A DNA stretch of 64,000 nt from Escherichia phage phiEc_1. The position numbers and the translations under genes were made by a program. The notes beneath the pieces are model-generated. The model saw nothing but the letters and a program-made list of their open reading frames with translations, ran no database searches and had not been told where the DNA came from. The DNA lies in sequence record LC768462.1; one strand, 5' to 3'. Shown here in pieces: positions 18,427 through 20,490 of the stretch; the stretch's first letter is position 1, and each line of letters starts with the position of its first letter.

Positions 18427-18456
18427 ATGAAAGGGTTTACCCTTCAGGTGGATTAG
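18427..18456 (+). CDS. 9-codon upstream ORF (MKGFTLQVD) preceding the GATase start
   Basis: AAGG 8 nt upstream of ATG; stop 3 nt before the ATT codon; contains the SD for the downstream gene. Confidence 0.3.
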   Translation: MKGFTLQVD

Positions 18457-18459
18457 AAA

Positions 18460-20490
18460 ATTTGTGGCATCGTATTAGCTGGCGGTAATCTGTCAAGCAC
18501 TGATTTAGACGTATTTAACCAACTCTTTTATGCTGGAGTATTCCGAGGACAACATTCCTCCGGTATCTTTGGTCAGCGTAAAAGTACTAAGGAAGTCTTC
18601 ACTTATAAAGAAGCTCTTCCTTCTTTCGCATTCATCCTACAAGATGAGTACAAGAAGCACACCACTGGTGAAACAGCTTACACTGTAGCACCTTCATGGA
18701 TTGTTGGTCACAGCCGTCATGCAACGAAAGGTGCAGTTAACGCCAAGAACGCCCATCCTTTCCAACATGGTAACATCACTCTGGTTCATAATGGAACCTT
18801 GATGGACCAAGACCTGTTACCTGACAGTAAAAACTTCGAGGTAGATAGTGAGAACATCTGCCACTCTATTAACACTATTGGTGCAGCAGAGACTATTCAA
18901 AAGCTGGATGGTGCTTTCACCTTAATCTGGCATGATGCTTCTGATAACCGCCTTCATATCATTCGTAACGAAGAGCGTCCTTTCCATCTCGCACGTTGTA
19001 ACAGAGATTGGTTTGGCGCTTCTGAAGAAGATATGCTGATGTGGATTCTGAAGCGTTCGAAGTCTCACAAGAACCGTATTGATGAGCATTTTGAGTGTAA
19101 AGTTGGTACAGAGTATATCTTTGACATGTCTAATAACAGCATGACACTGGTTGAAGAGGTCGCCCACGAGCTTCCGGTTTTTACGGTAGTCAATCGTTGG
19201 GGCAATTACTACTCGAACAATTACAGCCAAAGCAACTATCAAAGTTCCTCAAAAAGCAGTACAAGCAATCCTTACGACACGAAGCCGGGTGTGACAGCGG
19301 CAGACGTTCGTCGAAGAAACGCAGTGGTAAGTCAAAACAAAATCGCAAGCGATCGAAACATTGATATTCGCCGCGATATGACTGTGGAAATCACTCCGCA
19401 TGAGTTTGTTCCTTATGCAACTGCCGGTGCTGTTCCTTCTCGTGGTAAGATGATTGGTTATATCTACGATGAGAAATCTCAAGAGTATATCGAAGGTGAT
19501 GTTCATAACGTAGACATTAAGGCTTATCAGGATGCCCTGAAAGACCCTAAAATTGTTTACCGTGGGACAGTATCCTGCATCTCCGAAGTCAATGCTATGG
19601 TCCGTTTAGTGATCACAGCAGGTCGTTTTGTTGACCCATCTCTGGAGAAAAAGGAGCCTGAGTCAACTACTGCTGACTTCGATGATGATATCCCTTTTGA
19701 TATGAATGATAGTTTCGTCAACAAGAATGGTGTTACTATCACTCGTAAATTCTGGGAAGCGCACTCTCATGGTGATTGTGGTGGTTGTGATAAGCACATT
19801 GATTGGAAGGATGCACCTAAAGCAGTCTTCGCATATCAGTGCTATTGGCATCCTGAATGTCTGGAAGGTTTGACTAAACCTAAAGAGGAAGAAGAGGAGG
19901 AAACTCCTATTGGTGTTTGTGAAATCTGCGGTGAAGTTAAAACAGAGAATGAGTTCGATGATGAACTTAGTCGTCTTCGTGGTGAAGATATCTGTAAAGT
20001 CTGCGCTGTAGAAGTAAAGAAGAAAGTGTCTAATGCTACGATCAAAGATGGTTATGTCTGGATTAAAGCAACAGATACAACAAACGCCCGTCGTCCTGAA
20101 TTCGCTTTACGTGTAACTGAAGATATGATCGGTCGTATGACTGTATTACCTTCCTCAGCGAAACAGACAGGCATCACTCTGGAGGATGTTGTTGATGCTT
20201 ATGTTGAGAAACGTAGCAACAGTATTTTTGCAATCTCAACTAAGCCAAAAAAGGAGGAACCTGCTGAGAAAGCAGGTGTGTTTCCTGAATCACGAACAGC
20301 TCTCCGCAAAACTGTCGTCAGCTTCGACGGAAACCGAAGCACTGACTTCACCAAAGCAATGTGGTCAACCCTCGGCTACTGCTCAGAGTGTTTTAAGCAG
20401 ATTCCGTGGCGCGATGCTGAAAGTTGTACGCTTGGTTCTATGAATCAAGTTTATTGTAATTCTCCTAAATGTTCATTGAATAGAGGTTAA
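18460..20490 (+). CDS. class-II (Ntn) glutamine amidotransferase-like protein with C-terminal Cys-pair region; apparent ATT start
   Basis: Frame open from 18457; ATT-TGT gives Met-Cys-Gly-Ile-Val, the N-terminal nucleophile signature; RGQ and HNG...N...F.VDSE motifs; AGGTGGA SD 7 nt upstream of ATT; first ATG/GTG/TTG only at 18799. Confidence 0.65.
   Translation: MCGIVLAGGNLSSTDLDVFNQLFYAGVFRGQHSSGIFGQRKSTKEVFTYKEALPSFAFILQDEYKKHTTGETAYTVAPSWIVGHSRHATKGAVNAKNAHPFQHGNITLVHNGTLMDQDLLPDSKNFEVDSENICHSINTIGAAETIQKLDGAFTLIWHDASDNRLHIIRNEERPFHLARCNRDWFGASEEDMLMWILKRSKSHKNRIDEHFECKVGTEYIFDMSNNSMTLVEEVAHELPVFTVVNRWGNYYSNNYSQSNYQSSSKSSTSNPYDTKPGVTAADVRRRNAVVSQNKIASDRNIDIRRDMTVEITPHEFVPYATAGAVPSRGKMIGYIYDEKSQEYIEGDVHNVDIKAYQDALKDPKIVYRGTVSCISEVNAMVRLVITAGRFVDPSLEKKEPESTTADFDDDIPFDMNDSFVNKNGVTITRKFWEAHSHGDCGGCDKHIDWKDAPKAVFAYQCYWHPECLEGLTKPKEEEEEETPIGVCEICGEVKTENEFDDELSRLRGEDICKVCAVEVKKKVSNATIKDGYVWIKATDTTNARRPEFALRVTEDMIGRMTVLPSSAKQTGITLEDVVDAYVEKRSNSIFAISTKPKKEEPAEKAGVFPESRTALRKTVVSFDGNRSTDFTKAMWSTLGYCSECFKQIPWRDAESCTLGSMNQVYCNSPKCSLNRG

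What the first reader, a model, noticed from the sequence alone, without database searches (positions are those of the whole stretch)
18427..18474. Glutamine amidotransferase apparently initiates at an ATT codon coupled to a 9-codon upstream ORF
The GAT-II frame is open from 18457 and encodes K-I-C-G-I-V... Class-II amidotransferases need Cys as the first residue after initiator Met removal, and the only codon directly before TGT is ATT (18460). AGGTGGA lies 7 nt upstream of that ATT. A 9-codon ORF (ATG 18427, own SD) ends at TAG 18454-18456, 3 nt before the ATT. The first canonical start in frame (TTG 18799) would delete the whole catalytic N-terminus. This implies either a rare AUU initiator with termination-reinitiation coupling, or a sequencing error at one base (ATG to ATT).
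Basis: seen in the sequence. Interest (0 to 1): 0.6.

Follow-up and report, generated by a model that had tools for sequence, protein, structure and literature searches.

The report
ATT start left by homing endonuclease
This phage glutamine amidotransferase gene almost certainly starts at a rare ATT codon, and comparison with relatives suggests the odd start and its leader were left behind by a selfish homing-endonuclease cassette that inserts at the first codons of this gene.

Summary
The window is a phiEco32-like coliphage. ATT-TGT and a 56-58 nt leader (mini-ORF, hairpin, AGGTGGA, TTAGAAA) are identical across three genera whose synonymous sites are saturated, in 96 of 96 matching phage records. 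This rules out a sequencing error.

The Cys aligns with Cys1 of GlmS and PurF. More distant orthologues read SD-ATG-TGT at the same position. No in-frame canonical start and no suppressor tRNA exist. AUU initiation is therefore the only economical reading. The phiEco32 GenBank/RefSeq record already annotates it, as the only ATT among 128 CDS.

New here: in about 115 independent lineages of this phage GAT family, 17 have ATT or ATC before the Cys and none has GTG. These lineages alone carry an HNH homing endonuclease, or its remains, directly upstream (9/20 vs 0/95).

Three near-identical allele pairs, with and without the endonuclease gene, lose homology exactly at the third base of the start codon.

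The window is a derivative that has lost the endonuclease. Aeromonas phage BUCT695 keeps the pseudogene next to the same leader.

Coupling to the mini-ORF is possible but unproven, and other ATT/ATC lineages lack it.

The parts
17277..18380 (+). Upstream gene (amidoligase, phi32_84 orthologue), stop TAA 18378-18380.
18388..18408 (+). Terminator-like hairpin (GGUGCCUC/GGGGCACA) followed by AATTT. It varies between genera while keeping the pairing.
   Evidence: Annotated as 'terminator' in some records.
18410..18467 (+). Invariant leader block. It is identical in Kuravirus, Nieuwekanaalvirus and Suseptimavirus although synonymous sites in the adjacent coding sequence are saturated.
18415..18420 (+). 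Weak SD-like AAAGGT, 6 nt before the mini-ORF ATG.
   Evidence: -3.4 kcal/mol. Absent in BUCT695.
18427..18456 (+). Mini-ORF ATG...TAG (MKGFTLQVD*), in frame with the GAT ORF. It is probably a vestige of the 3' end of a homing-endonuclease cassette. Whether it is translated is unknown.
18428..18446 (+). Hairpin UGAA(A)GGG-UUUA-CCCUUCA (-6.1 kcal/mol). It takes in the UG of the mini-ORF AUG and ends at the first base of the SD.
   Evidence: The BUCT695 change lies in the loop, and L196 has an extra A-U pair. Unique in the window.
18446..18452 (+). Shine-Dalgarno AGGTGGA for the GAT gene, 7 nt before ATT.
18453..18459 (+). Spacer TTAGAAA, containing the in-frame TAG (18454-18456). Together with ATT-TGT-GG it is identical in four very distant lineages.
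18460..18462 (+). ATT, the inferred initiation codon.
18463..18465 (+). TGT, the catalytic N-terminal Cys (Cys1 after Met removal).
   Evidence: aligns with residue 1 of mature GlmS and PurF; invariant C1 G2.
18460..20490 (+). Full GAT-domain protein CDS (676 codons including ATT; phi32_83 orthologue). It has an Ntn class-II glutaminase domain at the N-terminus and a Cys-rich C-terminal part.
18799..18801 (+). First in-frame canonical start (TTG). Many records use it, or another downstream start, as the annotated start. Any of these would remove the catalytic N-terminus.

Best explanation
Translation of the amidotransferase most likely begins at AUU 18460. Initiator tRNA is placed there by the AGGUGGA Shine-Dalgarno sequence 7 nt upstream, and Met is then removed to expose the catalytic Cys. 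Initiation itself is inferred, not shown. What is shown is that no alternative start exists, that orthologues carry ATG at this exact position, and that the protein is made.

The ATT and the invariant leader in front of it (hairpin, SD, TTAGAAA, mini-ORF) appear to be the right-hand end of a mobile cassette built around an HNH homing endonuclease. In this phage GAT family the cassette inserts after ATG-TGT-GG. It leaves the original SD+ATG behind on its left. On its right it supplies a new SD plus ATT or ATC for the amidotransferase. This is shown in other lineages by near-isogenic allele pairs. For the window's own lineage it is inferred from BUCT695, which keeps an endonuclease pseudogene next to the same leader, and from L196.

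In the phiEco32 group the endonuclease has been lost but the leader and ATT remain under strong purifying selection.

Two further steps are inference only. The G-to-T/C change may protect cassette-bearing DNA from its own endonuclease, because the conserved coding bases after it cannot change freely. Ribosomes terminating at UAG 18454 may help re-initiation at AUU.
For: Start codon:
- The frame is closed by TAG two codons before Cys, and the next canonical start is 113 codons downstream.
- The Cys aligns with Cys1 of mature E. coli GlmS, E. coli PurF and B. subtilis PurF.
- Pfam GATase_6 and GATase_7 score above their cut-offs.
- Orthologues at 42-66% identity have an ordinary SD followed by ATG-TGT.
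- Variation with 3-nt periodicity starts at the Cys codon. For codons 1-112, dN/dS is 0.08 with dS about 1.8.
- The phiEco32 record annotates ATT, the only ATT among 128 CDS.
- SU10 proteomics detected the protein (PMC4281155).

Family-wide pattern:
- Among 115 deduplicated lineages: ATG 95, ATT 13, ATC 4, TTG 3, GTG 0.
- 22 of 23 ATT/ATC loci have no in-frame canonical start between the upstream stop and Cys.
- Bacterial GlmS-like hits all have ATG.

Endonuclease link:
- Pfam HNH_3 is found in 6 of 18 upstream ORFs of ATT/ATC lineages and 0 of 89 for ATG lineages (p = 1e-5).
- tblastn with the endonuclease proteins hits only ATT/ATC loci: 10 loci, against 0 of 132 ATG loci. By lineage this is 9/20 vs 0/95, p = 2e-8.
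- The pairs L082/L103, L167/L174 and L102/L095 (96-99% aa identity) lose homology exactly at base -1. The native SD+ATGT(GTGG) is retained to the left of the insert.
- Prospective check: the three best phage-database hits of the endonuclease (Vibrio phages 275E43-1 and VPp1, Klebsiella phage Klyazma) all sit directly upstream of a GAT gene with ATT, ATT or ATC before Cys.

Window lineage:
- BUCT695 has the same leader (2 differences in 45 nt) behind an HNH/HTH pseudogene.
- In L196 the endonuclease ORF reads through a variant of the leader to the same TAG.
Against: - There is no direct evidence for initiation at AUU: no N-terminal peptide and no ribosome profiling.
- No endonuclease remnant can be recognised in the window itself. 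The link rests on homology of about 50 nt with BUCT695 and L196.
- About half of the ATT/ATC lineages show no endonuclease within the 600 nt examined.
- In BUCT695 the pseudogene lies upstream of the mini-ORF ATG, and no native ATG-TGT-GG copy is visible. The exact history of this cassette type is therefore unresolved.
- The immunity idea is untested. In pairs L167/L174 and L102/L095 the insertion itself already removes the upstream half of any target site, so the G-to-T change might be unnecessary for protection.
- The complete invariance of 56 nt is more than an SD plus start codon would normally need.
Confidence: 0.7

Rival explanations
1. Adaptive weak start, independent of any mobile element. 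AUU or AUC is selected because it gives low or IF3-sensitive translation of a potentially wasteful glutaminase, as in infC autoregulation. The endonuclease association is secondary.
For: - AUU, AUC, AUA and CUG initiate at about 1-2% of AUG in E. coli, and infC and pcnB use AUU (bioRxiv 10.1101/063800).
- ATT is kept in 96 genomes long after the endonuclease was lost, although one mutation would restore ATG.
- ATT/ATC lineages have stronger SDs (p = 0.01) and stronger upstream hairpins (p = 5e-5) than ATG lineages. This looks like a tuned module.
Against: - It does not explain why ATT/ATC occurs only where an endonuclease or its remnant is present.
- It does not explain why allele pairs that are otherwise 96-99% identical differ at exactly this base together with the insertion.
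- It does not explain why GTG is absent and TTG rare among 115 lineages, when weak SDs could lower expression just as well.
Confidence: 0.2
2. The mini-ORF and the GAT ORF are one gene. UAG 18454 is read through or bypassed, giving a 12-residue propeptide (MKGFTLQVDxKI) that is cut off autocatalytically to expose Cys, as with the 11-residue propeptide of B. subtilis PurF.
For: - The mini-ORF is in frame with the GAT ORF.
- The length resembles the 11-residue PurF propeptide (my own knowledge). The mature PurF chain in 1ao0/1gph starts at the Cys that aligns with this one.
- L052 has an uninterrupted in-frame ATG 12 codons before Cys.
Against: - There is no suppressor tRNA in the window or in the phiEco32 record, only tRNA-Arg.
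- There is no matching take-off and landing codon for a gene-60-type hop: GAU precedes UAG and no GAU/GAC follows.
- L088 and L196 have a stop codon immediately before ATT, L031 has two in-frame TAGs and no start, and 22 of 23 ATT/ATC loci have no in-frame canonical start.
- Both substitutions in the BUCT695 mini-ORF are non-synonymous.
- Orthologues start M-C.
Confidence: 0.04
3. Sequencing or assembly error (ATG read as ATT), or a decaying gene whose only product starts at TTG 18799 and lacks glutaminase activity.
For: Many GenBank records annotate only the truncated ORF.
Against: - The leader is identical in 96 independently sequenced genomes plus metagenomic contigs.
- Codons 1-112 are under strong purifying selection (dN/dS 0.08), and Cys1, Gly2 and the other catalytic-domain residues are invariant.
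Confidence: 0.02

Closest known systems
AUU-initiated bacterial genes infC and pcnB of E. coli
   Same: A near-cognate AUU start codon is used with a normal Shine-Dalgarno sequence, and orthologues elsewhere use canonical starts. Expression is expected to be low and sensitive to IF3 proofreading (bioRxiv 10.1101/063800).
   Different: Here the codon is a recurrent, laterally distributed trait of one phage gene family (about 15% of lineages, with AUC also used). It is tied to a mobile element. No autoregulatory logic is known, and IF3 dependence is untested.
MobA homing endonuclease plus gene 60 translational-bypass cassette of phage T4 and relatives
   Same: An HNH homing endonuclease inserts into a highly conserved part of a phage gene and brings a short sequence module that needs unusual translation to keep the host gene working. 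That module is reported to protect the DNA from the endonuclease. The endonuclease is often pseudogenised or lost while the module stays ('hit and run') (bioRxiv 10.1101/2022.08.31.505936).
   Different: The translational device here is a replacement initiation site (SD + AUU/AUC) at the 5' end of the gene, not a 50-nt hop inside it. The endonuclease belongs to the HNH_3 + HTH type common in T7-like phages. Protection from cleavage has not been tested.
Class-II (Ntn) glutamine amidotransferases GlmS, PurF and AsnB
   Same: The glutaminase fold is the same. Cys1 aligns with the catalytic N-terminal Cys, which requires removal of Met or of a propeptide.
   Different: This is a phage-specific family with a different, Cys-rich C-terminal part. 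It is encoded with amidoligase, COOH-NH2 ligase, ATP-grasp and gamma-glutamyl cyclotransferase genes. The substrate is unknown. The 'L-glutamine-D-fructose-6-phosphate aminotransferase' label in RefSeq is not supported beyond the glutaminase domain.
Intronless homing by free-standing phage endonucleases (T4 seg and mob genes)
   Same: An intergenic or gene-end endonuclease gene carries its own promoter. Allele pairs with and without it show clean junctions, with clustered silent differences next to the insertion (L082/L103: 12 differences, all within +2 to +95, then 1100 identical nt).
   Different: The insertion point is inside the first three codons of the target gene. The start region is duplicated, and the functional copy has a non-canonical start codon.

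Membership tests
Class-II (Ntn) glutamine amidotransferase | The catalytic Cys is the first residue of the mature protein and aligns with Cys1 of solved enzymes. | tested here: met
   Profile position 1 (Cys) aligns with residue 1 of 1xff (GlmS), 1ecb (PurF) and 1ao0/1gph. C1 and G2 are invariant in 15 homologues.
Class-II (Ntn) glutamine amidotransferase | Domain-level sequence match above the curated threshold. | tested here: met
   Pfam GATase_6 scores 55 bits (cut-off 27) and GATase_7 scores 27.4 bits (cut-off 25).
Class-II (Ntn) glutamine amidotransferase | Glutamine hydrolysis coupled to an acceptor reaction. | not testable with these tools
Genes with a non-canonical AUU/AUC start (infC/pcnB type) | No canonical in-frame start can give the functional N-terminus, and orthologues have ATG at the same position. 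| tested here: met
Genes with a non-canonical AUU/AUC start (infC/pcnB type) | A Shine-Dalgarno sequence lies at functional spacing from the non-canonical codon. | tested here: met
   AGGTGGA lies 7 nt upstream (-5.9 kcal/mol). Spacing is 5-7 nt in all 17 ATT/ATC lineages.
Genes with a non-canonical AUU/AUC start (infC/pcnB type) | Experimental proof of the initiation site and of IF3 sensitivity. | not testable with these tools
   Only the presence of the protein in SU10 proteomics is known.
Homing-endonuclease mobile cassette (MobA/gene 60-like) | An endonuclease ORF lies adjacent to the modified target gene. | tested here: not met
   The window has only 79 nt between the amidoligase stop and ATT, and no HNH ORF. 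The window is therefore classed as a derivative that has lost the endonuclease, not as a carrier.
Homing-endonuclease mobile cassette (MobA/gene 60-like) | Relatives share the same flanking module next to an intact or decayed endonuclease. | tested here: met
   BUCT695 has an HNH/HTH pseudogene plus the leader. L196 has the endonuclease ORF running into the leader. L031 has an endonuclease followed by hairpin, AGGAGGATTAGAAAATT and TGT.
Homing-endonuclease mobile cassette (MobA/gene 60-like) | Near-identical alleles with and without the element show a clean insertion junction. | tested here: met
   Met in three other lineages (L082/L103, L167/L174, L102/L095). No such pair was found for the window's own lineage.
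Homing-endonuclease mobile cassette (MobA/gene 60-like) | The endonuclease cuts the empty (ATG) allele and spares the occupied (ATT/ATC) allele. | not testable with these tools
   This needs enzyme assays or co-infection crosses.
Termination-reinitiation coupling through an upstream mini-ORF | A translatable mini-ORF whose stop lies within a few nt of the restart codon, conserved wherever the module occurs. | tested here: inconclusive
   The stop is 3 nt before ATT, and ATG and TAG are kept in 96 genomes and in BUCT695. However, the SD is weak or absent, L196 has CTG instead of ATG, and L031 and L091 have no mini-ORF. Mini-ORFs are not significantly enriched (8/17 vs 22/95, p = 0.07).
Propeptide-type Ntn amidotransferase (B. 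subtilis PurF) | An N-terminal extension is translated continuously from a canonical start. | tested here: not met
   An in-frame TAG at 18454 interrupts it, and there is no suppressor tRNA.
T4 gene 60-type translational bypass | Matching take-off and landing codons flank the gap. | tested here: not met
   The take-off codon would be GAU, and no GAU/GAC lies between UAG and the Cys codon. A hop would also leave an N-terminal extension.

The most novel reading that the evidence does not exclude
A family of HNH homing endonucleases has specialised on the first codons (ATG-TGT-GGN-AT) of phage Ntn-amidotransferase genes. It rewrites the start codon of its host gene to ATT or ATC as part of the mobile cassette. 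The G-to-T/C change acts as the self-immunity mark. The 56-nt invariant leader of phiEco32-like phages is then a fossil of that cassette, now maintained as a dedicated AUU (re)initiation module. Under this reading, start-codon identity in a whole gene family is dictated by a selfish element rather than by the needs of the gene.
Probability: 0.4. Interest if true: 0.8.

Novelty: new variant of a known kind. Interest (0 to 1): 0.68.

Why it matters
[quoted passage not shown] One source puts the number confirmed in E. coli at two (bioRxiv 10.1101/063800). Here a whole family of phage genes uses AUU or AUC in about one lineage in seven.

The comparative data give a concrete and testable cause: a homing-endonuclease cassette that inserts at the first codons of the gene and supplies a replacement initiation site. 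That would be a second example, after the MobA/gene 60 bypass cassette, of a selfish endonuclease forcing unusual translation on its host gene.

There is also a practical consequence. Most deposited genomes annotate this gene as a truncated ORF without its catalytic cysteine, or split it into fragments. Gene callers that allow only ATG, GTG and TTG will keep doing so.

Cultured phages with the intact cassette (Klebsiella phage Klyazma, Vibrio phage VPp1) and without the endonuclease (phiEco32 group) make the question experimentally accessible.

Tried and rejected
- **Rfam.** Only chance-level hits around the leader.
- **Suppressor tRNA.** Only tRNA-Arg(tct) is present.
- **Phage promoter.** The phi32 gp36 consensus tAATGTAtA (PMC8948821) has no good match at the leader. 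Window-wide matches with up to 1 mismatch are at the chance level. The gene lies in the early, sigma70-transcribed block (PMC4281155).
- **Group I intron joining the upstream ATG to TGT.** The junction bases do not fit: no U at the end of a 5' exon and no G at the intron end that would restore AUG-UGU. The 33-nt insert in the window is also far too short.
- **-1 frameshift on AAAAUUU, or a gene-60-type hop.** There is no proper slippery heptamer and no matching landing codon. Either would leave an N-terminal extension.
- **Alternative hairpin sequestering the SD** (GGUUUACC/GGUGGAUU, part of the MFE fold). The two BUCT695 substitutions break it but keep the other hairpin.
- **A long-range helix enclosing the leader**. 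It is not conserved in BUCT695.
- **Coupling to the upstream gene as a general requirement for AUU/AUC.** ATG lineages are more often tightly coupled (83% vs 59%).
- **Avoidance of ATG/GTG/TTG codons in the first 112 codons.** Nominal P = 0.006, but 0.086 once amino-acid composition is taken into account.
- **Literature.** No paper in the held library mentions this ATT start or links homing endonucleases to GAT genes. The phiEco32 genome paper (PMC2587145) is not held.
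Full report
**1. The observation**

The window is a phiEco32-like coliphage (Kuravirus). It is 100% identical over 2.6 kb to Escherichia phage EK5.
- ATG 18427 opens a 9-codon ORF (MKGFTLQVD) that ends at TAG 18454-18456.
- AAA, ATT (18460) and TGT (18463) follow, and the frame stays open to 20490.
- AGGTGGA (18446-18452) lies 7 nt before ATT.
- The first in-frame canonical start is TTG 18799.

The TAG is therefore an in-frame stop. The 'own SD' of the mini-ORF is weak (AAAGGT, -3.4 kcal/mol).

**2. Not an error, and already annotated once**

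The 47-48 nt element is identical in 96 of 96 matching Gordonclarkvirinae records, in IMG/VR contigs and in metagenomic contigs.

Between genera the neighbourhood is only 71-72% identical. The longest exact run in it is the leader, 18410/18412-18467 (56-58 nt), and the next longest is 32-38 nt.

Variation with 3-nt periodicity begins at the third base of the Cys codon. For codons 1-112, dN/dS is 0.08 with dS about 1.8. The N-terminal domain is therefore translated and constrained, and the leader is constrained at the nucleotide level.

The phiEco32 RefSeq/GenBank CDS phi32_83 already starts at this ATT. It is the only ATT among 128 CDS: 112 ATG, 13 GTG, 2 TTG.

Most other records annotate truncated or fragmented ORFs without the Cys.

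**3. Why ATT is the start**

The Cys aligns with residue 1 of mature GlmS and PurF structures, and the domain passes the Pfam thresholds.

Orthologues at 42-66% identity read ordinary SD, ATG, TGT at the homologous position. These are Proteus phage Privateer, Salmonella phages SE131 and PKM.Hi.22.6, Aeromonas phage 4_4572, Pseudoalteromonas phage RIO-1 and IMG/VR contigs.

There is no suppressor tRNA. SU10 proteomics detected the protein among the early gene products (PMC4281155).

**4. A family-wide trait**

A profile of 15 N-domains (A1) retrieved 80 viral, 80 metagenomic and 34 genomic loci.
- Codon before the catalytic Cys in 167 loci: ATG 132, ATT 28, ATC 4, TTG 3.
- After collapsing similar leaders into 115 lineages: ATG 95, ATT 13, ATC 4, TTG 3, GTG 0.
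- In 22 of 23 ATT/ATC loci no canonical start lies in frame between the upstream stop and Cys. In two of them the stop codon directly precedes ATT.
- Bacterial GlmS-like hits all have ATG.
- A rough NJ tree needs about 16 ATG-to-ATT/ATC changes.
- ATT/ATC lineages have stronger SDs (p = 0.01) and much stronger hairpins just 5' of the SD (p = 5e-5). Spacing is mostly 7 nt.
- The 18-nt core GGATTAGAAAATTTGTGG recurs in front of very distant GAT genes (L020/L091 and Melvirus phage T4S1) that have no mini-ORF.

For scale, annotated bacterial starts are 81.8% ATG, 13.8% GTG and 4.35% TTG. AUU and AUC initiate at about 1-2% of AUG in E. coli, where only infC and pcnB are confirmed AUU starts (bioRxiv 10.1101/063800).

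**5. The link to a homing endonuclease**

Reading the sequence upstream of the ATT/ATC loci showed HNH and HTH protein ends. Formal tests gave:
- Pfam HNH_3 / zf-His_Me_endon in 6 of 18 upstream ORFs of ATT/ATC lineages, against 0 of 89 for ATG lineages. The ATG lineages instead have amidoligase, peptidase C26 or GGACT genes upstream (Fisher p = 1e-5).
- tblastn with seven endonuclease sequences hits the upstream 600 nt of 10 loci. All 10 are ATT or ATC, and none of the 132 ATG loci is hit. By lineage this is 9/20 vs 0/95, p = 2e-8.

Three natural allele pairs are nearly identical in the GAT gene: L082(ATC)/L103(ATG) at 99%, L167(ATT)/L174(ATG) at 98%, and L102(ATT)/L095(ATG) at 96%.
- In each pair homology to the empty allele runs leftwards up to base -2 and breaks at the third base of the start codon.
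- L082 and L103 differ downstream at only 12 positions, all between +2 and +95. They are then identical for 1100 nt.
- The native SD+ATGT(GTGG) survives at the left end of the insert.
- It is followed by a consensus sigma70 promoter (TTGACA-17-TATAAT), an RBS, the HNH ORF, often a hairpin, a new SD, ATT or ATC, and then TGT GG.
- L149 and L152 show the same layout. In L064 the endonuclease ORF starts at the native ATG-TGT.

As a prospective check, I searched the phage database with one endonuclease. The three best hits are Vibrio phage 275E43-1, Vibrio phage VPp1 and Klebsiella phage Klyazma. Each sits directly upstream of a GAT gene whose Cys codon is preceded by ATT, ATT and ATC respectively. 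All three GAT CDS are annotated truncated.

**6. Where the window fits**

Aeromonas phage BUCT695 belongs to another family, and its GAT is 52% identical. It carries the same leader with two changes, one in the hairpin loop and one in the SD. An HNH/HTH pseudogene lies directly behind it.

L196 (GAT 60% identical) has a variant leader. The hairpin has one extra A-T pair, the mini-ORF ATG is CTG, and the endonuclease ORF itself reads through to the same TAG.

The phiEco32 group therefore looks like the end state of a 'hit and run': the endonuclease is gone, while the right-hand module is kept and frozen. Whether the mini-ORF ATG descends from the native start or from cassette sequence could not be settled. 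Comparison with ATG-type relatives suggests it lies where their SD was.

**7. Mechanism**

| Claim | Status |
|---|---|
| No alternative start exists; ATT is homologous to ATG in orthologues | Shown |
| SD geometry fits initiation at ATT | Shown |
| The N-domain is under purifying selection | Shown |
| ATT/ATC is associated with the endonuclease, with exact junctions in other lineages | Shown |
| Initiator tRNA starts at AUU and Met is removed | Inferred |
| The window's leader derives from the cassette | Inferred |
| The G-to-T/C change gives self-immunity. The coding bases after it are fixed by C-G-I-V, so the start codon's third base is one of the few free positions. This would also explain why GTG/TTG are not used | Speculative but testable |
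| Ribosomes ending at UAG 18454 help re-initiation at AUU | Speculative but testable |
| The hairpin keeps the SD accessible or insulates it | Speculative but testable |

The closest documented parallel is the MobA endonuclease with the gene 60 bypass cassette. There an inserted module is reported to protect the DNA from the endonuclease, needs unusual translation, and outlives the endonuclease (bioRxiv 10.1101/2022.08.31.505936).

**8. Unexplained**

Complete invariance of 56 nt at dS of about 1.8 is more than an SD and start codon normally require. It could reflect a precise re-initiation structure, a protein-binding site, or continued selection for resistance to circulating endonucleases.

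**9. Verdict**

- The AUU-start reading is supported, and one database record already annotates it.
- The sequencing-error reading is refuted.
- Coupling to the mini-ORF remains open.

The broader result does not appear in the literature I could search. It has two parts: recurrent ATT/ATC starts in a phage gene family, and their tie to an HNH homing-endonuclease cassette inserted at codons 1-3.

Noticed in passing
window 18460-20490 and homologous loci L002, L003-L007, L031, L229-L231: Most deposited genomes mis-annotate this gene. EK5 splits it into three ORFs. KBNP1711, EP335, ECBP2, SU7, BUCT695, T4S1, VPp1, Klyazma and 275E43-1 all start it at a downstream ATG or GTG, which loses the catalytic Cys.
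   Followed up: yes
L082 56-110, L102 98-140, L149 61-105, L152 5-50, L167 109-150: In cassette-bearing alleles the retained native ATGTGTGG is followed by a consensus sigma70 promoter. Its spacer contains CCACACA(T/A), the complement of (A)TGTGTGG. Transcripts from upstream could therefore fold the leftover native start codon into a hairpin. The leftover start opens only a 4-6 codon ORF that ends at the TGA inside TTGACA.
   Followed up: partly
window 18463-18798: The first 112 codons of the GAT gene contain no ATG, GTG or TTG codon. Naive P is 0.006 from the phiEco32 codon frequencies, but 0.086 once the Val/Leu content and lack of Met are taken into account. This may be avoidance of internal starts behind a weak start codon, or it may be chance.
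   Followed up: partly
L008, L009, L013, L026, L027, L038-L042 (about 15-30 nt before ATG); window 18409-18425: ATG-type relatives carry a conserved TTTAAATGTAA(A) motif between a terminator-like hairpin and the SD. It resembles the phiEco32 gp36 promoter consensus tAATGTAtA. The window has a degenerate version (ATTTAAAGGTTAATTAG). Its function was not examined.
   Followed up: no
window 19700-20487: The C-terminal half of the protein has no Pfam match. It contains several Cys-x2-Cys pairs (for example CGGC...C...C, CEICG...CKVC, CSEC...C...C) that look like zinc ribbons. The acceptor or partner function of this GAT is unknown, and the RefSeq name 'fructose-6-phosphate aminotransferase' is unsupported.
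   Followed up: no
L052 (IMGVR_UViG_3300022540_000049), 36 nt before the Cys codon: This is the one ATC lineage with an uninterrupted in-frame ATG 12 codons upstream (MTVFIRLGDEKI-C). It is the only locus where a PurF-like propeptide is formally possible.
   Followed up: no
L194-L197, L207 (Herbiconiux daphne CPCC 203386 scaffolds of 560-924 nt): An actinobacterial genome assembly holds several tiny scaffolds with three different enterobacterial-phage-like GAT 5' ends (TTG, GTG and ATT starts). This is most likely phage contamination of the assembly.
   Followed up: no
window 18388-18408: The terminator-like hairpin after the amidoligase gene changes sequence between genera (GGGTGCCTC.../GGGCGCTC...) while keeping its pairing. 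Several records annotate it as a terminator, which would make the GAT leader the start of a separate transcript or an attenuated one.
   Followed up: partly
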